A stretch of 64,000 nt of DNA, taken from positions 854 through 64,853 of IMG/VR virus record IMGVR_UViG_2547132108_000003; one strand, written 5' to 3'. A program made the position numbers and the translations under genes. How positions within the stretch are numbered: the stretch's first letter is position 1; every line of letters begins with the position of its first letter. Positions 51,484-57,987 of the stretch are shown piece after piece. The notes beneath the pieces were generated by a model that was given only the letters and a program-made list of their open reading frames with translations, did not search any database and was not told the DNA's origin. This DNA comes from a virus (lineage: Duplodnaviria; Caudoviricetes).

Positions 51484-53631
51484 ATGTTAGGTGAAATAGA
51501 TTTTAATAAAAAGCCAATACAGCCAAAGTTCTTTTTAGCTAAACCAGATCGGACAATTATTGCAAAGTTAAGTGAGGCATACAATGTAAATATTAAAGAG
51601 CGTGTCTCAACTCTTAATGAGTTAAGTTTGGACTTACCTTATGATATAGACTTTAATCATAAAATTATTCGAAATAAGAATGTTGACTTGTTAAAAGAAA
51701 GGTACCAAATTCTAGCCAAACTCGGAAATGAACAGAAATGGTACATAATTCATCAACTTGAAGACAAGATGGATGAGAACAAGGATGTTAAGACGGTTAA
51801 AGCTATTTTGCTGCCACATGAGTTAAGGGATAAAACTTTACGCTCAGTTAAGCTGGAATCAAAAAATGCAAAGCAAGCTCTAAATACTGTATTAGCATCT
51901 ACACTCTGGTCTCTCGAAAATCTTGATGCAGATTTTGAATTAACATATCGTGATTTTGATTTTCCAAGTAACACCGTATTGGATGCGGTTGATAAAATAG
52001 CTGAAACGTTCAATGCAGTAATTCAATGGAATACTGAAGCAAGAACACTTAGCCTAGTTAAACCTGAATTCATTGGCATTAATCGTGGATTGAAATTTTC
52101 TTACGGAAAGTACATGAAAACTCTAGCCAAAGAAACAAGAACAGATGAAATGGTGACCAGATTAAAAGCATTTGGTAAAGATGGAATGTCAATCGAGAGT
52201 GTCAATAGTACAGGCCAAAATTTCCTTGAGGATTTCAGCTATTTTATGTATCCCTTTGAAAGAGATGCAAATCGTAATGTAATCGATCATAGCGAGTATA
52301 TGAGTGATTCTTTGTGTCATGCTTTACTTGATTTCGAAGCTTTAATTAATAGCAAAAAGGATGAATTCAGTAAACTTTTAAAGGAAAAAGAGGGGCTTAT
52401 TGATCAACAATCAAAGAGAGATGCTGAGTTGAAGAATCTCAAAAATCAGGAAAAAGTAATTACTGATATTCAACTATTGCAACAGTTTGATCAAAATATG
52501 TGGTTCTATAAATTTAATTATAATGGATCTCATACTGTTCAAAATACAACAATTAGGCCAACATATTATTATACCGTTCTTGGAAAAGTATCGGATTCAT
52601 CTAATATTACTATCTCTTTAGATGGGAATTCTAAAACCTTAATTAGAGGACAATGGACTGTACTTGGTAAAATAAAGGGAAAGTCAACAACATCTTTTGA
52701 AGTGAATGGATCAGCGCAAGGAACAGAGGTATTTATTCAGATTGCTAATATTACAGAAGGTGAGTATACAGAAGCAAATAACGAATCTGCATTAATCGAA
52801 AAATACAATGTGGATAATAAACAAATGCAGATTACAGCAAAGCAAAATGAGATAAAGAATATCAATGATCAAATTGCATTAGTTAATAAGCAAATTGGAG
52901 AATTGAAAAAGGTTCTTGCTGCTGAAAACAATTTTACGAAAGAACAAATTATTGAATTGAATCCGTTCATCATTGAGAAAGAATTTGTTGACGAAAAATT
53001 TATTGATCCCAAGGATTTAATGAAAGCAGCTAAGGAAAAGTTTGAAGAGATAAAGAGACCGCAAACTTCAATTAAAATTGATATTGTAAATTTTCTTGAG
53101 GTTGTTGAAGAGCAGCGCAATTGGAATAAACTGCGTCTTGGTGACGAAGTGATTATTCAATATGAAAGATTTAATACAAAAGTAACAGCTAGAATTATTG
53201 AAATTGAGTATGATTTTGAGAACTTTAACATCAACCTGACTATTGCTAATGTAAAAGAGATTGATGATAAAGCAGATAAACTAGCAAAATATATTAATCG
53301 TGGAATGAATACGGCAGTAACTGTTGATATGTCGAAAAATAAGTGGACAAATACAATTCATCAAGCCAGTGAAATAAGTGAAATTCTTGATCGATTCTGG
53401 AATAAAGTCACAAATACAATCAATATGGCGAACAATGAGTTTGTAACCATAGACCGTAAGGGAGTTACTATCATTGATCCCAATGACCACAGTAGATTTT
53501 TAAGAGCAACGCATGGAGCACTTGCATTGACTCGTTCGAATGGAATCCGATTCGAGACCGCAATTACGCCGGATGGATGTCAAAAAGAAAAATTAAAAAT
53601 GAAGAAAATAAATAACATAATTTTATCTTAG
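51484..53631 (+). CDS. tail-associated (YomG-like) protein, N-terminal half
   Basis: PKFFLAKPD..LSLDLPY..TRLKAFGKDG..GDEVII; conserved sequence ends at TAITPDG, followed by a short basic tail. Confidence 0.85.
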   Translation: MLGEIDFNKKPIQPKFFLAKPDRTIIAKLSEAYNVNIKERVSTLNELSLDLPYDIDFNHKIIRNKNVDLLKERYQILAKLGNEQKWYIIHQLEDKMDENKDVKTVKAILLPHELRDKTLRSVKLESKNAKQALNTVLASTLWSLENLDADFELTYRDFDFPSNTVLDAVDKIAETFNAVIQWNTEARTLSLVKPEFIGINRGLKFSYGKYMKTLAKETRTDEMVTRLKAFGKDGMSIESVNSTGQNFLEDFSYFMYPFERDANRNVIDHSEYMSDSLCHALLDFEALINSKKDEFSKLLKEKEGLIDQQSKRDAELKNLKNQEKVITDIQLLQQFDQNMWFYKFNYNGSHTVQNTTIRPTYYYTVLGKVSDSSNITISLDGNSKTLIRGQWTVLGKIKGKSTTSFEVNGSAQGTEVFIQIANITEGEYTEANNESALIEKYNVDNKQMQITAKQNEIKNINDQIALVNKQIGELKKVLAAENNFTKEQIIELNPFIIEKEFVDEKFIDPKDLMKAAKEKFEEIKRPQTSIKIDIVNFLEVVEEQRNWNKLRLGDEVIIQYERFNTKVTARIIEIEYDFENFNINLTIANVKEIDDKADKLAKYINRGMNTAVTVDMSKNKWTNTIHQASEISEILDRFWNKVTNTINMANNEFVTIDRKGVTIIDPNDHSRFLRATHGALALTRSNGIRFETAITPDGCQKEKLKMKKINNIILS

Positions 53632-53639
53632 TATCCCAC

Positions 53640-53679
53640 ACATGACATTCCTGTTTATATATCCATCGGAATGTCATGT
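53640..53679. repeat. perfect 12-bp inverted repeat upstream of the endonuclease RBS
   Basis: ACATGACATTCC / GGAATGTCATGT. Confidence 0.8.
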
Positions 53680-53698
53680 ATTTTTATGAGGTGATTTT

Positions 53699-54817
53699 AT
53701 TAAATACAATACTCAAATTTTTAAAGATAAAGTATATAATTTAGTAGGCGACGAATATCAGGTTGTGAGTGAGTATGTAAACAGTAAAACAAAAATATTT
53801 TTAAGACACATAAAGTGTGAAAAAATAATTGATATTTTGCCTTCTAGTTTTCTTATGGGTAACAGATGTCGATTTTGCATGGGTGGTGTCAAGAATAGAG
53901 ATACTAAATCGTTCAAAGAAGAAGTAAAACAATTGACGAATGATGAATATGTAATACTTGGTGAATACGTAAATGCAAAAACCAAAGTGCCAATAATGCA
54001 TAAAAAATGCGGATATTCTTATGAAGTTACACCTGATACCTTCTTAAGCGGTTGTCGATGTCCCAAATGTAGTGGTAAAATGCGAAAAACTCATAATGAA
54101 TTTTTAAAAGAAATTGAAGAAATATGTGATAGTGAGTATACAGTTATAAGTACATATTTTAATTACTCAACGAAAGTATCATTGGTTCATAATATATGCA
54201 ATCATGAATACATGGTCACCCCTGCCGATTTTATTTCTGGGGGAAAAAGGTGTCCAAAATGTTTTCGAAATGACAAGAAAACCACAAAGATTTTCCAACA
54301 AGAATTGAGTAGTAAATATGGCGATGAATACACTGTATTAGGAGAATATACTGGAGCTAATAATAAAATAAAAGTCTTTCATAAAAAATGTAATAAACCT
54401 TATTACCCCACTCCTTCAAATTTACTCAGAGGTATAAGTAGATGTTCGACTTGTCAGGATTCTAAGGGCGAGGAGAAAGTTTCTAACTTTCTTATTTCAC
54501 ACAAAATTAACTTTACTCCACAATATTCGTTTAAAGACTGTAAGAGGATATTCGTTTTACGTTTTGATTTTGCTGTTTTTGATAATGATAACAATCTATT
54601 ATTTTTAATAGAATACGATGGGGTACAACACTTTGAACCAACGTTTGGCATAAGAGCATTTAAAAACACTTTATCTAGTGACGAGATTAAGAACAAATAT
54701 TGTTTATCTAAAAGTATTGAGTTGATAAGGATTCCATATTGGGAATTTGATAATATTGAAAATATATTAGAAGATAAGATAAAAAATAATAAACTTACTT
54801 ATAGCGACAGGAGGTAA
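53699..54817 (+). CDS. Vsr/DUF559-like homing endonuclease with zinc-ribbon repeats (probable AUU start)
   Basis: Four Y.VLGEY....TK....H..C repeats; SKGEEKV..LRFDFAV..IEYDGVQHF; GAGGTG RBS 5 nt before in-frame ATT 53699. Confidence 0.85.
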   Translation: MKYNTQIFKDKVYNLVGDEYQVVSEYVNSKTKIFLRHIKCEKIIDILPSSFLMGNRCRFCMGGVKNRDTKSFKEEVKQLTNDEYVILGEYVNAKTKVPIMHKKCGYSYEVTPDTFLSGCRCPKCSGKMRKTHNEFLKEIEEICDSEYTVISTYFNYSTKVSLVHNICNHEYMVTPADFISGGKRCPKCFRNDKKTTKIFQQELSSKYGDEYTVLGEYTGANNKIKVFHKKCNKPYYPTPSNLLRGISRCSTCQDSKGEEKVSNFLISHKINFTPQYSFKDCKRIFVLRFDFAVFDNDNNLLFLIEYDGVQHFEPTFGIRAFKNTLSSDEIKNKYCLSKSIELIRIPYWEFDNIENILEDKIKNNKLTYSDRR

Positions 54818-54822
54818 TATCA

Positions 54823-57507
54823 ATTAGTACTGTTGCAATTATTCAAACTCCTGAGAAAGCTTATATCGCTACTGACACAGCAATTTCAACAACTACCAAT
54901 GGGCAAATGTATAGAGTTAGCGACTTTGGTGAAAAACTTTTCGAAGTTGATAATGCAATCATATTTTGCTCCGGTACTATGCCCATTGCTTATGAAGTAA
55001 TTGAACACTACGAGGCTACTGGTAATTTTTCTATCAATCATCTCAAAGAAAGCGCAGAAACGATTTTCAATAAATATCAATCTGTATTTGATAATCCTTC
55101 ATTAGAATTGATATATGTGAAGAAAATTTATACGAAAATAGTTAATGCTCAAATTTCTTCTTATAATAATTTTAAGATTATTTATCACAATGTTGATGAA
55201 GGTGTCGGTGTATTCACTGGCGGAATAAAAACTGAAGAATCATTGAATTATTTGGTTGATAAGATATCAACTGGCGAAGTTAATGTAAAAACATTGTTTT
55301 CAAATTTATTTAATTCTATAGCGTTTGAAGGTACTGGCGGATTTTTGAAATTATACGAAGTTAAAGATAAACCAAAATTAATACTTCATAAAAAAATTGA
55401 GGATTGTCATGTTGAACGCTTATTTGCCTCTTCTAAAGAATGTAATCTTATCATAGCCGAACAAGTGCTTGGTAAATTGATCCTTGGTGAACGTGTAACA
55501 ATTGGCGATCCAGATGGAGTGTGGCTTACTGAAGGTCCTAAGACCACCATAACAGATCGTTGTGGACGTGAGGTAATGAAGTTAGGCCTGTACGATAAAA
55601 ATCCTGATAAGTTTGGAATGATTGTGAATCGCTATGCTTCAGACGACTGTAGCTCTAAACAAGTCATTAATCAGTTTATTGTTAACGGTAATGATGGAAT
55701 TAAAATAACACAATGGAACGGCAAAGATTTTAAAGACAAATTCTATGCCGATACTAATGGTCTGTTGATGGCTGAAGACATGACAACCAAAAGACTCAAA
55801 ATCCTAAGTGATACAAACGAATTAATGTTGGATAGTTTCACAAAGTACATGGATATTGGGAAGTTTGATAATATCATCACGGACGGCAAATTAACTGCTA
55901 TTGAGAAGCTACAAGTTAAAGGTGAACGTGAGCGGATAATCTCCGAGTATCAAAAATTATTGGCTCAAGCAGAGATTTATAAAAGTACTTCTAGAGATAA
56001 CACAATACGCATAGATCCAACTTCATTCACAAATAGATATAACGAATTGATTGCTTATCTCAATCCATTGTTGTCCAATATGGATGAAACTACAGTTATT
56101 GATCGAAATGAATTCATACAAAAGTTTAAGCGTTATTATGATGAAGTAACCAATATTGTAAACGCAATAAATGATTCAATCAAGTATTCATCTTTGCAAT
56201 TAGGAACCTTCTATAATGATATGGTGCTTGACGCAATCAATGGAATAACTGTTACAAGAAATGATAAAAGTTACAGGACAAAAGTAAATGCTACTGAAGG
56301 AATAAAAATACAAAAGAACATTGGCACTCAGTCCTCGCCTAATTGGAGTGATCGATTTTTCGTTGATACCAACGGTAACTTGAATTTAAAAGGATACTTC
56401 CAAGCTGGTGAAGGTGAGCGAGTATTTACCATTGACAGCAATGGACTTGCATTGGGGAGTTCGATATGGGCGAATGCTCCCTTCCGTGCAGATTATCACG
56501 GCAATGTCTACATGAATCGTTTAACTGCTGATACAGCGGAGATAAAGAATTCGTATTTTAGAGATGGTCATATTGTTGGGTCCGATCTAACAATTGGTGC
56601 TGGAAATCAAGTATTCAAAGTATTTCCAAACATCGGGATATGGGCTGGCAATCAGAACTTTAATGATGCACCATTCTCGGTTGACTTGCAGGGTAGAATG
56701 AAACTGAAAAATGGCAATAATGAAGTGTTTATTGACACTGTGAACAATAACATGTATCTCAATAAAATGAATCTTATTGGAGCAGGTGTAATTACAGGGC
56801 AGCAGTTAATAGTACATTCTGTGATTGCTGGTGAAGCAACAATTAATGATCTAACCGTCAACCATCTTAAAACGATGAAGAAGGAAGCAAATGTTGGCGA
56901 AATAGTCGATTATCAAGATATTAAGGACAATTTTCATAAGTTTATAACAGGAACGGTTGCTTCAAAATCTCATGCAAAAGCAGACAATGGCAAGCCACTT
57001 TATTGGGTAGATGCAAATAAAAAGTATCAAACATTTGATGTAACACCTTATCCAGTTGATGCCTATACTTTCTCAGATGTTCAGGAAAAATCAGTTAAGA
57101 CGTTCTTGGGTTCTGGTGCTGACGCTAAGCCATTTGAAATTGATGGTGCAGGTGATGGAGGCGCTAAGGTTTCTATTGATGGAGTTGAGTATGAATCTGC
57201 TAGAGCCTATAAGCTCAAGTACAATGGCGGTGTTGTTTACAGGTATTTGAGTAGCAACTATGCAAAAGAGCGAAAGTTATCTCTTGCGGATGACGGAATT
57301 TATTTGAAGTCAGAAGAAGAGAAAATAAATATTGATTCTAAAAATTTGTATGCGAATTTATCAGGGGAATTGAAAATAACACATGATTCTGGTTACAAAT
57401 TTGAAATTACGAATGATAGCATTGTATGTACTGATCCAAGTGGTAACTTCTTTAAATTGCAAAACGGTGTATTAAGTGCAAGTGCAAATGAATATAACTT
57501 TGCATGA
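54823..57507 (+). CDS. Ntn-hydrolase (proteasome-beta-like) domain fused to the C-terminal half of the tail protein/spike (probable AUU start)
   Basis: AGGAGG 8 nt before in-frame ATT; STVAII..YIATD..GEKLFEVD..CSG..TGG..GTGG; from 55450 IIAEQVLGKLILG, then tail-fibre-like APFR/APFS repeats. Confidence 0.8.
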   Translation: MSTVAIIQTPEKAYIATDTAISTTTNGQMYRVSDFGEKLFEVDNAIIFCSGTMPIAYEVIEHYEATGNFSINHLKESAETIFNKYQSVFDNPSLELIYVKKIYTKIVNAQISSYNNFKIIYHNVDEGVGVFTGGIKTEESLNYLVDKISTGEVNVKTLFSNLFNSIAFEGTGGFLKLYEVKDKPKLILHKKIEDCHVERLFASSKECNLIIAEQVLGKLILGERVTIGDPDGVWLTEGPKTTITDRCGREVMKLGLYDKNPDKFGMIVNRYASDDCSSKQVINQFIVNGNDGIKITQWNGKDFKDKFYADTNGLLMAEDMTTKRLKILSDTNELMLDSFTKYMDIGKFDNIITDGKLTAIEKLQVKGERERIISEYQKLLAQAEIYKSTSRDNTIRIDPTSFTNRYNELIAYLNPLLSNMDETTVIDRNEFIQKFKRYYDEVTNIVNAINDSIKYSSLQLGTFYNDMVLDAINGITVTRNDKSYRTKVNATEGIKIQKNIGTQSSPNWSDRFFVDTNGNLNLKGYFQAGEGERVFTIDSNGLALGSSIWANAPFRADYHGNVYMNRLTADTAEIKNSYFRDGHIVGSDLTIGAGNQVFKVFPNIGIWAGNQNFNDAPFSVDLQGRMKLKNGNNEVFIDTVNNNMYLNKMNLIGAGVITGQQLIVHSVIAGEATINDLTVNHLKTMKKEANVGEIVDYQDIKDNFHKFITGTVASKSHAKADNGKPLYWVDANKKYQTFDVTPYPVDAYTFSDVQEKSVKTFLGSGADAKPFEIDGAGDGGAKVSIDGVEYESARAYKLKYNGGVVYRYLSSNYAKERKLSLADDGIYLKSEEEKINIDSKNLYANLSGELKITHDSGYKFEITNDSIVCTDPSGNFFKLQNGVLSASANEYNFA

Positions 57508-57522: not shown

Positions 57523-57987
57523 ATGGCTGGCGTAGCTACTGATGGTTCAAAGATTGTTGATTCTATTAAATCTGGTCATGTGACATATAAAATTGAGTCA
57601 TATCAATGTGTCTCATGGGGTCCATTTGGTTGTACTGGTTATGGATGGGTCCCAACAGGTTCTGGAAGCACTAATGCAAAAATAACTGGTCAAGTAACTG
57701 TTCCATCATCCAAAATGAAATTGTCAGGAAAAAATGTGGCAAAGATTGGAGACTACACGACCGAATTATGGGTTGCCGATCCTCCCATTCCCTCAAGCTC
57801 AGGCAATACAAGATATATTGCAACATCACCAATTTCAGGAAGTGGTCAAGGAACAATTTCATCTGGTAGCGCAAAAGGGAAACTAGAAGGACAGGCAATT
57901 GCTTTAATTGGCTCACAAGTTACAACTTGTCTGGGAACAACTACTACAATTGCTGATGGTGATACAAAAATGAAGTTTGGAAGTTAA
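57523..57987 (+). CDS. PAAR-like spike-tip protein
   Basis: SKMKLSGKNVAKIGD, SGSAKGKLEGQAIALIGS repeats; His/Cys residues; follows spike-like C-terminus. Confidence 0.65.
   Translation: MAGVATDGSKIVDSIKSGHVTYKIESYQCVSWGPFGCTGYGWVPTGSGSTNAKITGQVTVPSSKMKLSGKNVAKIGDYTTELWVADPPIPSSSGNTRYIATSPISGSGQGTISSGSAKGKLEGQAIALIGSQVTTCLGTTTTIADGDTKMKFGS

What the first reader, a model, noticed from the sequence alone, without database searches (positions are those of the whole stretch)
51484..57507. Fractured tail gene: homing endonuclease in the gap and a proteasome-beta-like Ntn-hydrolase leading the C-terminal half (possible protein-ligating/processing system)
Seen: the YomG-like ORF stops being tail-like at ...TAITPDG (53577) and ends in a 17-aa basic run-on. 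Tail-like sequence resumes at IIAEQVLGKLILG (55450). TPDG+IIAE reads as a natural continuous tail motif (from recall, not a search). The 1872-bp gap holds a hairpin, a Vsr-like endonuclease and a ~205-aa domain fused in frame to the C-half. That domain's upstream extension (AGGAGG, ATT 54823) gives S-T-V-A-I-I..YIATD..GEKLFEVD..CSG..FTGG..GTGG. This parallels proteasome beta (T1, D/E17, K33 in G-K-K-L-F-Q-I-D, G47, GSG, SGG), with Ser1, Asp17 and Lys37 intact. Established: Ntn hydrolases use an N-terminal Ser/Thr nucleophile; archaeal connectase, a Ser1 beta-homologue, ligates proteins; fractured phage genes with Vsr-like HEGs are normally rejoined by split inteins. Inference: this Ntn domain may take that role, trimming or ligating the N-half to the C-half, or may be a virion-borne protease.
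Basis: partly seen in the sequence, partly recalled or inferred. Interest (0 to 1): 0.9.

Follow-up and report, generated by a model that had tools for sequence, protein, structure and literature searches.

The report
Proteasome-like cassette splits phage tail gene
A phage tail-tip gene has been cut in two by a mobile cassette carrying a homing endonuclease and a proteasome-type enzyme domain that heads the second half; this domain probably docks, trims or re-joins the two protein halves, which would be a way of healing a broken gene without an intron or an intein.

Summary
The YomG/Tal-type tail gene is split exactly where dozens of intact homologues read ...ETAITPDG-IIAE(R/Q)xLGK. The 1872-bp gap holds a hairpin, a free-standing homing endonuclease gene and a ~195-aa domain plus linker fused in frame to the C-half.

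With a 105-sequence alignment the domain folds at pLDDT 93.7 as a proteasome beta subunit (Z 19.4). Ser follows the ATT start directly, and Asp18, Lys38 and Gly51 are (near-)invariant in a family of at least 239 clusters. In every listed member the domain sits at the extreme N-terminus.

New here:
- The 17-aa "run-on" is a diverged copy of the C-half's first residues and recurs (13-19 aa, h-h-x-E-K-h) in all eight split N-halves seen.
- Every split locus with context (4 of 4) has endonuclease plus Ntn.
- No Ntn-less C-half was found.
- The split arose at least 6 times on the N-half tree, so the cassette is mobile.

Against a dedicated repair role: Ntn-headed fibre genes also occur without any N-half.

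Cleavage or ligation is inferred, not shown. The domain family was probably listed, without function, as "FC4" (Fuchs et al. 2021). The scan has noted the same cassette in other genomes.

The parts
51484..53631 (+). N-terminal fragment (715 aa) of a YomG/Tal-type tail-tip ('tail spike') protein
   Evidence: Pfam YOMG_N E 2.7e-26 and Prophage_tail E 3.2e-26. PHROG 6211 minor tail protein E 2.7e-260, profile positions 5-635 of 1168. 60% identical over residues 1-704 to intact P0158 (1200 aa).
53578..53628 (+). 17-codon C-terminal tail of the N-half (CQKEKLKMKKINNIILS): a diverged copy of the residues that open the C-half. Proposed recognition or leaving peptide.
   Evidence: BLAST aligns it to Sundance IVGERIYGKVIMGVNLA, residues 815-831. 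Equivalent 13-19-aa tails with the pattern h-h-x-E/D-K-h occur in Perkons, L037, P0202, P0203, P0207, P0215 and P0231.
53640..53679 (+). Hairpin with a 12-bp perfect stem and 16-nt loop, followed by a U-run; terminator-like
   Evidence: MFE -17.7 kcal/mol, z -2.69, 1 of 200 shuffles folds as well. Not flagged by the consensus scan, which allows loops of 3-8 nt only.
53699..54817 (+). Free-standing homing endonuclease gene. The ORF finder starts it at GTG 53765; a likely ATT start at 53699 lies behind GAGGTG. It has repeated Zn-finger-like DNA-binding modules and a C-terminal nuclease (..RFDF..IEYDGVQH..).
   Evidence: PHROG 559 E 3.7e-93, 9084 'homing endonuclease' E 2e-26, 7140 'intron encoded nuclease' E 2.5e-14. 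Pfam DUF2726 E 4.9e-5 and DUF4379 E 2e-4, both just below cut-off. Internal repeat seen as a self-hit, 37% over 185 aa. The ATT start is read from the sequence.
54809..54825 (+). Shine-Dalgarno AGGAGG (inside the last codons of the endonuclease gene) and the ATT start codon of the Ntn::C-half gene
   Evidence: Sequence. Relatives align from residue 1 as M-S-x. The Brevibacillus-like locus L060 uses ATC after GGAGGTG.
54823..55407 (+). Proteasome-beta-fold Ntn domain (residues 1-195): Ser2 at the Thr1 position; Asp18, Lys38, Gly51, Gly134 and Gly172-Gly173 conserved
   Evidence: AlphaFold2 with alignment A1: pLDDT 93.7, pTM 0.88. Foldseek PDB: at least 500 hits; every row listed is a 20S beta subunit, E 6e-10. 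VIA-align: Z 19.4 proteasome, 18.1 Anbu, 14.9 HslV, 11.9 connectase; model residue 2 pairs with residue 1 of mature chains. Conservation.
55408..55449 (+). Low-confidence linker (residues 196-209) between the Ntn fold and the tail sequence
   Evidence: Mean pLDDT 70 for the block of residues 191-200 and below 50 for 204-209. Length and sequence vary across the family.
55450..57507 (+). C-terminal fragment (685 aa) of the same tail-tip protein, starting IIAEQVLGKLILG
   Evidence: Aligns to Sundance from residue 815 and to P0158 residues 698-1159. PHROG 6211 positions 862-1158.
57523..57987 (+). PAAR-like protein; conserved downstream neighbour, context only
   Evidence: Pfam PAAR_motif E 4.4e-6. 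Homologues follow the tail gene in Sundance, Perkons, L043, L044, L046 and L060.

Best explanation
A mobile cassette has inserted in frame into a Tal-type tail-tip gene, immediately after the conserved ...TPDG.

From left to right the cassette encodes:
1. A 13-19-residue diverged copy of the residues that normally follow TPDG, then a stop codon.
2. A free-standing homing endonuclease, which spreads the cassette into intact alleles.
3. A proteasome-beta-type Ntn domain whose start codon is followed directly by the nucleophile Ser, plus a flexible linker that reads straight into the rest of the tail gene.

Shown here: the split, the fold, the conserved catalytic residues, the strictly N-terminal position of the domain, the recurrent tail peptide, and repeated independent gain of the cassette.

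Inferred: after removal of the initiator Met, the Ntn domain binds the N-half's C-terminal peptide in its primed-side substrate groove and attacks the bond after Gly. Most likely the N-half is then passed to the free alpha-amine of Ser1, as connectase does with its substrate. The two halves would then become one chain, N-half - Ntn - C-half, and the short peptide would be released. Plain hydrolytic trimming with non-covalent docking is the fallback version.
For: Fold and active site:
- pLDDT 93.7; proteasome beta Z 19.4 with residue 2 aligned to Thr1 of mature chains.
- K38 and G51 are invariant in all three alignments (105, 16 and 89 sequences; D18 in one of them). M1, S2, D18, A20, S22, R31 and F48 are invariant or at 90% or more in each.
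- One relative hits Pfam Proteasome at E 6e-5.
- The family has 239 clusters at E<=1e-3. All 150 listed carry the domain within their first 9 residues; none has it internal.

Link to the split:
- The window, phage Perkons, L037 and L060 all read N-half - endonuclease - Ntn::C-half.
- In 802 Bacilli genomes, the only two genes split at the junction both have the cassette.
- None of the 23 homologues of the C-half start begins at the junction without an Ntn domain.

Mobility:
- On the N-half tree, 7 split genes need at least 6 changes, forced by well-supported branches. Each sits beside intact genes.
- L060 is collinear with intact P0214 on both sides: 85.6% identity in the N-part and 63% in the C-part.
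- The endonucleases differ between loci or are reduced, while the Ntn domain stays.

Tail peptide:
- It is conserved in pattern and length (13-19 aa) in 8 split N-halves.
- Connectase recognises 10-15 primed-side residues. Its incoming substrate has the same sequence as the leaving group, and it forms an amide between Thr1-N and the substrate's N-fragment (PMC7980362).
Against: - No experiment or complex model shows binding, cleavage or ligation.
- Ntn-headed fibre-like genes are common without any such N-half: 28 of 30 positive Paenibacillales genomes. Examples are a gene directly after a tape measure (L052), genes beside a head-like or primase gene (L042, L050), and intact 1009-1073-aa copies in integrase/HNH islands of genomes; three such genomes tested (G320, G327, G168) have no Prophage_tail gene.
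- Several of these lack the junction segment, so the domain's activity cannot depend on this particular partner.
- The model has the ordinary beta-subunit helices H1/H2 and lacks connectase's two-helix insertion.
- There is no KDPGA-like motif.
- The residue before IIAE in the C-half is Leu, not Gly, so a scarless two-step splice is not indicated.
Confidence: 0.45

Rival explanations
1. Docking and trimming only. The Ntn domain binds the N-half's tail peptide, and perhaps clips it off by hydrolysis, so that the halves assemble non-covalently in the trimeric tail tip. No new peptide bond is formed.
For: The default chemistry of proteasome-family enzymes is hydrolysis. The model looks like an ordinary beta subunit, with H1/H2 present and no connectase insertion. 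Genes split by homing endonucleases can work as non-covalent pieces (Aeh1 NrdA; from my own knowledge, not checked here). The co-occurrence evidence fits this equally well.
Against: Trimming a 13-19-residue peptide has no obvious benefit on its own. The strict requirement for a free N-terminus, and the tail peptide mimicking the C-half start, are more naturally explained by transfer chemistry.
Confidence: 0.2
2. Independent function. The Ntn domain is a general head module of a class of Firmicute phage fibre or tip proteins. It might be a virion-borne or assembly protease acting on another tail protein or on the host surface. Its presence in split Tal genes would then only reflect recombination with such a fibre gene.
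For: The domain heads diverse fibre-like proteins in other contexts and in genomes without this N-half. Fuchs et al. list a Firmicute proteasome-like cluster (FC4) with phage-tail-like C-terminal domains and give no link to split genes.
Against: This does not explain why every junction-split gene has the domain exactly at the break, why the cassette was gained at least 6 times at the same codon, or why a conserved copy of the junction peptide is kept on the N-half.
Confidence: 0.2
3. Passenger or relic. The Ntn domain is carried along with the endonuclease and has no role for the tail protein. The halves associate on their own.
For: None directly. No function has been demonstrated.
Against: Catalytic residues are invariant or nearly so across relatives at about 20-35% identity. 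The domain is retained where the endonuclease is reduced (L060). In-frame fusion to the C-half is maintained in all cases.
Confidence: 0.07

Closest known systems
[quoted passage not shown] 2009, PMC2677866)
   Same: A conserved phage gene is broken in two, a free-standing endonuclease gene sits in the gap, extra protein sequence is attached to both broken ends, and the element is mobile.
   Different: There is no HINT/intein domain (no Pfam hit, no conserved Cys/Ser1 at the start of the tail peptide, no HN+Cys/Ser/Thr at the end). The large piece is a proteasome-fold Ntn domain and the small piece a 13-19-aa copy of the junction. The host gene is structural, not a DNA-metabolism enzyme.
Connectase (archaeal monomeric proteasome homologue, protein ligase; PMC7980362; PDB 6zw0, 8jtu)
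   Same: Proteasome-like Ntn fold with Ser/Thr1 directly after Met (Z 11.9). Connectase forms an amide between its N-terminal amine and the substrate's N-fragment, recognises 10-15 primed-side residues, and its leaving group and incoming substrate share sequence. This matches the layout seen here.
   Different: The fold here keeps helices H1/H2 and lacks connectase's two-helix insertion. There is no KDPGA motif. The domain is fused to its presumed second substrate. It is much closer in structure to 20S beta and Anbu (Z 18-19). Ligase activity is not shown.
FC4, 'Firmicute cluster 4' of proteasome-like homologues (Fuchs, Alva, Lupas 2021, PMC8665760)
   Same: Firmicute-only proteasome-like proteins with conserved active-site residues and C-terminal domains resembling phage tail proteins. 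One family member here is an NCBI Paenibacillus protein.
   Different: Identity with FC4 could not be verified because the representative's sequence was not at hand. The paper gives no model, function, genomic context, endonuclease link or split-gene link.
20S proteasome beta subunits / HslV / Anbu / BPH (MEROPS T1)
   Same: Best structural matches, and the same order of catalytic residues.
   Different: The window's domain has no significant sequence match to Pfam Proteasome or to PDB sequences. It is fused to a tail fibre. Ring assembly is unknown.

Membership tests
Proteasome-like Ntn hydrolases (Pfam clan NTN, family T1) | Alpha-beta-beta-alpha sandwich fold of the beta subunit | tested here: met
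   pLDDT 93.7 model. Foldseek E 6e-10, prob 1.0. VIA-align Z 19.4, rmsd 3.2 over 180 residues.
Proteasome-like Ntn hydrolases (Pfam clan NTN, family T1) | Nucleophile Thr/Ser as the first residue of the mature chain | tested here: met
   Ser follows the start codon directly. S2 is present in 90% or more of 105 relatives. Model residue 2 aligns with residue 1 of mature beta5i, Anbu and HslV. Removal of Met is inferred.
Proteasome-like Ntn hydrolases (Pfam clan NTN, family T1) | Asp17, Lys33 and Gly47 equivalents | tested here: met
   K38 and G51 are invariant and D18 is invariant or at 90% or more. Equivalence rests on order and spacing in the fold; residue-level superposition was not inspected.
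Proteasome-like Ntn hydrolases (Pfam clan NTN, family T1) | Sequence match to Pfam PF00227 above threshold | tested here: not met
   No hit for the window's protein. One relative matches at E 6.4e-5. An Atlas neighbour cluster has PF00227 in 27% of members.
Connectase | Loss of helices H1/H2 and a two-helix insertion between strands S3 and S4 over the active site | tested here: not met
   The model has helices at 53-66 and 71-84 and no insertion after strand 3. The description of connectase comes from PMC8665760 and PMC7980362.
Connectase | KDPGA recognition motif in the substrate | tested here: not met
   The junction reads TPDG|IIAE and the tails read h-h-x-E-K-h.
Connectase | Amide conjugate between the N-terminal amine and the substrate; transpeptidation | not testable with these tools
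   Needs biochemistry or mass spectrometry.
Split intein / fractured gene | Gene broken in two with a free-standing homing endonuclease gene between the pieces | tested here: met
Split intein / fractured gene | HINT fold with intein blocks (Cys/Ser1; terminal His-Asn followed by Cys/Ser/Thr) | tested here: not met
   No Pfam intein/Hint hit. The fold is proteasome-like. Tails start with C, V or I, varying between loci. The domain ends ..ECNL|IIAE.
Group I intron with an endonuclease ORF | Match to an intron covariance model; exon continuity at the RNA level | tested here: not met
   No Rfam match at E<=1 in 53000-56000. About 600 nt of the gap encode a conserved protein domain fused in frame to the downstream half.
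FC4 (Fuchs et al. 2021) | Sequence membership in the cluster around WP_076223917.1 | not tested
The verbal description fits.

The most novel reading that the evidence does not exclude
The cassette is a new class of selfish element, analogous to an intein but built on a proteasome-type Ntn domain. The endonuclease spreads it into tail genes. The Ntn domain then re-joins the broken protein in a single-turnover, connectase-like reaction: it cleaves the N-half after TPDG and bonds it to its own N-terminal Ser. More broadly, Ntn-headed fibre proteins would be tail modules that attach themselves covalently to a partner carrying a short recognition peptide. That would let phages, and perhaps satellites or orphan islands, swap receptor-binding parts at the protein level.
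Probability: 0.3. Interest if true: 0.95.

Novelty: new variant of a known kind. Interest (0 to 1): 0.85.

Why it matters
Genes broken by homing endonucleases are known to be healed either at the RNA level by introns or at the protein level by inteins. Here a third kind of domain, a proteasome-family Ntn enzyme, sits exactly where a split intein would sit. It travels with the endonuclease and has invaded the same codon of tail genes repeatedly.

If it joins or processes the halves:
- It would be a new protein-level repair chemistry in viruses.
- It would give a first biological role to an orphan branch of the proteasome family.
- It could be a new self-contained ligation tag of practical use, as connectase already is.

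It also bears on how phages exchange receptor-binding modules. The claim is directly testable with two plasmids and a mass spectrometer, or with virions of the cultured phage Perkons.

Tried and rejected
Negative or uninformative results:
- Group I intron: no Rfam match.
- Intein: no Pfam hit and the wrong fold.
- A single-sequence fold of the domain was useless, pLDDT 35.
- HMMER of the domain or its profile against PDB sequences gave only chance hits.
- The domain has no Pfam, PHROG or NCBIfam hit.
- The endonuclease has no PDB sequence match.
- IMG/VR scans with P0002, P0101 and P0079 found no relatives.
- Alignment-based locus scans failed for lack of a conserved stretch.
- The cassette's G+C is not clearly different from its flanks.
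- A regex search for junction-like tails upstream of Ntn genes in 20 Paenibacillales loci found only L037.

Candidate counter-examples that did not hold:
- G272 is a frameshifted, truncated gene with an intact junction.
- The G401 hits are small contigs with intact junctions.

Considered and rejected: a scarless two-step splice (cutting off the Ntn domain and then ligating TPDG to IIAE). The residue before IIAE is Leu rather than Gly, and no second recognition copy precedes it.
Full report
**Anatomy**

The window is part of a 64.9-kb IMG/VR viral contig. Its tail module reads as follows:
- tape measure protein, 2075 aa
- three small tail genes
- a 715-aa ORF at 51484-53631 with Pfam YOMG_N and Prophage_tail
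- a 350-aa endonuclease ORF
- a long ORF ending at 57507
- a PAAR-like gene

The 715-aa protein ends ...FETAITPDG followed by CQKEKLKMKKINNIILS and a stop. Tail-protein homology resumes at IIAEQVLGKLILG at 55450. No Rfam family, and so no group I intron model, matches 53000-56000.

**The gene is truly split**

- Brevibacillus phage Sundance has one 1610-aa gene. The window's N-half aligns to its residues 5-831 and the C-half from residue 815.
- About 60 intact homologues read ...ETAITPDG|IIAERLLGK... or close variants. Most are Paenibacillus prophage 'tail spike' proteins of 1150-1200 aa.
- PHROG 6211 covers both halves: profile positions 5-635 for the N-half and 862-1158 for the C-half.

**The run-on is not noise**

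- BLAST aligns the 17 residues after TPDG to the residues that follow the junction in the intact gene, so the two halves overlap.
- Eight split N-halves all stop 13-19 residues after the Gly. Their tails keep the pattern h-h-x-E/D-K-h. In the window, Perkons, L037, P0202, P0207 and P0203 they begin CQKEKL, VIGEKM, IVAEKS, IVKEKL, VVEEKL and IIKDKI.
- Intact genes have A-E-[RQM] at these positions. The tails therefore resemble each other as well as the target.
- P0202 and P0207 are separated by only short branches on the N-half tree (0.078 and 0.068). Their tails share only about a third of their residues. This fits tails that travel with the cassette.

**The gap**

- A perfect 12-bp hairpin with a U-run follows the stop.
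- The endonuclease matches homing or intron-encoded nuclease PHROGs (E down to 4e-93) and weakly DUF2726.
- From the sequence, the endonuclease probably starts at ATT 53699 behind GAGGTG, adding one more copy of its internal repeat.
- Its last codons contain the AGGAGG that serves the next gene. That gene starts at ATT 54823; a TAG lies at 54802, and no ATG, GTG or TTG lies between.
- Homology supports this start. Perkons ORF185 (MSSLLVLQ...) aligns from residue 1, and 90% or more of relatives begin M-S.
- The related locus L060 uses ATC.
- Gene callers miss these starts: the database copy of the window's own protein begins at Met29.

**The Ntn domain**

- Alone, the domain folds poorly. With 105 relatives it folds at pLDDT 93.7 and pTM 0.88.
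- Foldseek returns at least 500 PDB hits; every row listed is a 20S beta subunit.
- VIA-align gives Z 19.4 for proteasome beta, 18.1 for Anbu, 14.9 for HslV, 14.1 for BPH and 11.9 for connectase. Model residue 2 lies on residue 1 of mature chains.
- K38 and G51 are invariant in all three alignments. M1, S2, D18, A20, S22, R31 and F48 are invariant or at 90% or more in each. G134 and G172-G173 are strongly conserved.
- phmmer against 1.84 billion representatives finds 239 clusters. All 150 listed carry the domain within their first 9 residues, in proteins mostly 450-1100 aa long.
- Sequence-only methods do not see the proteasome relationship, with two exceptions: one relative hits PF00227, and one Atlas neighbour cluster is partly annotated as Proteasome.

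**Link between the cassette and the split**

- Four loci with readable context have the same order, N-half with tail, then endonuclease, then Ntn::C-half. They are the window, phage Perkons, L037 (a Paenibacillales genome) and L060 (a Brevibacillus-like genome).
- The endonucleases differ. The window's is unrelated to Perkons'. L037's resembles Perkons'. L060's is reduced to about 135 aa. The Ntn domain persists in all.
- In two samples of 401 genomes each, this Tal junction occurs in 36 genomes. Only two are split there, and both carry the cassette. Two apparent exceptions are a frameshifted gene and contig fragments with intact junctions.
- Of the 23 homologues of the C-half start, none begins at the junction without an Ntn head.
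- L060 is collinear with intact P0214 on both sides of the insert, at 85.6% and 63% identity.

**Mobility**

- A maximum-likelihood tree was built from the N-half part of 43 proteins.
- The seven split genes need at least six changes of state, and well-supported branches force this number.
- The window groups with intact P0158/P0159 (support 98), Perkons with intact P0234/P0238 (100), and P0202/P0207 with intact P0214 (99).
- The cassette has therefore entered, or left, the same codon many times, as expected of a homing element.

**What speaks against a dedicated repair role**

- In Paenibacillales, 30 of 401 genomes carry the domain, but only two of them also have this type of N-half, and only one has it adjacent.
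- Other members sit directly after a tape measure (L052), after a head-like gene (L042), or beside a primase-helicase (L050).
- Intact 1009-1073-aa genes, 53-69% identical to Sundance's C-part, also sit in integrase/HNH-endonuclease islands. Three of these genomes (G320, G327, G168) have no Prophage_tail gene.
- About half of the sampled members lack the junction segment after the domain.
- The Ntn head is therefore a general module of fibre-like proteins, and the cassette is one of its uses.

**Mechanism**

Shown: fold, conserved catalytic residues, free N-terminal position, recurrent tail peptide, co-occurrence with the split, and mobility.

Inferred: the tail peptide is the domain's substrate or ligand. 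The parallel with connectase is close (PMC7980362):
- Connectase binds mainly the 10-15 residues after the scissile bond.
- Its leaving group and incoming substrate share sequence.
- It transfers the substrate's N-fragment to its own N-terminal amine as a stable amide.

Applied here, this would fuse the N-half to Ser1 of the Ntn::C-half chain. However, the domain lacks connectase's structural signature and motif, so it is not a connectase. Hydrolytic trimming, or a function unrelated to the split, remains possible. I put about 0.45 on action at the junction, with about 0.3 of that on covalent joining.

**Literature and earlier notes**

- Fuchs, Alva and Lupas (2021; PMC8665760) list 22 new proteasome-like families. 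One is a Firmicute cluster, FC4, whose C-terminal domains resemble phage tail proteins. No model or function is given. This is probably the same family, but I could not verify it.
- Full-text searches found no paper linking a proteasome-like domain to a split phage gene or a homing endonuclease.
- Fractured genes with split inteins are the closest described arrangement (PMC2677866).
- Earlier notes of this scan describe the same cassette in other genomes with the same reading. I saw them after reaching mine, and they are not independent evidence.

Noticed in passing
window 53699-53701 and 54823-54825; L060:4886-4888: Non-canonical start codons in the cassette. The endonuclease likely starts at ATT behind GAGGTG, the Ntn::C-half gene at ATT behind AGGAGG, and the equivalent gene in L060 at ATC. 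Public gene calls truncate such genes: P0003 starts at Met29, and about a dozen of the 150 listed relatives are N-truncated.
   Followed up: partly
L004, L035, L036, L038, L039 (Paenibacillus genomes G001, G168, G223, G327, G320): Intact 1009-1073-aa Ntn::C-half genes, 53-69% identical to the C-part of phage Sundance's tail gene. In the islands examined (L038, L039, L004) an NUMOD4/HNH endonuclease gene lies upstream on the other strand, followed by a 1.6-2 kb ORF-poor gap. In L039 the island also starts guaA - integrase and restriction-modification genes lie further downstream. No N-half remnant was found in the five loci. G320, G327 and G168 have no Prophage_tail gene, and G001 has only a sub-threshold match on another contig. 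These could be orphan modules, satellites or prophage relics.
   Followed up: partly
L052 (G136:C1, around 3713722): A 1351-aa tape measure gene is followed directly by an Ntn-headed 414-aa protein, with no recognisable Dit or Tal between them. Elsewhere in the same genome (L051), Ntn-headed genes lie in tandem and one carries a stop.
   Followed up: no
L045 (G151:C59:24730-26010): Two Ntn-domain genes lie in tandem, 218 aa and 387 aa.
   Followed up: no
window 57523-57987: A PAAR-like protein directly follows the tail-tip gene here and in Sundance, Perkons, L043, L044, L046 and L060. This suggests a PAAR-type tip on these siphovirus-like tails.
   Followed up: no
window 53765-54817: The endonuclease contains four or more tandem copies of a ~60-aa module (..DEYxVLGEYxNxxTKVxxxHKKCxxxY..PxxFLxGxxCPxC). 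The module resembles treble-clef zinc fingers (weak DUF4379) and sits ahead of the nuclease domain.
   Followed up: partly
Family N-termini (P0005-P0152): Many relatives read M-S-[SA]-C-L-I-L-Q with a Cys at position 4, and several split N-half tails carry a Cys at position 8 or 9. The window has Val at position 4 and Cys at tail position 1. The meaning is unknown.
   Followed up: no
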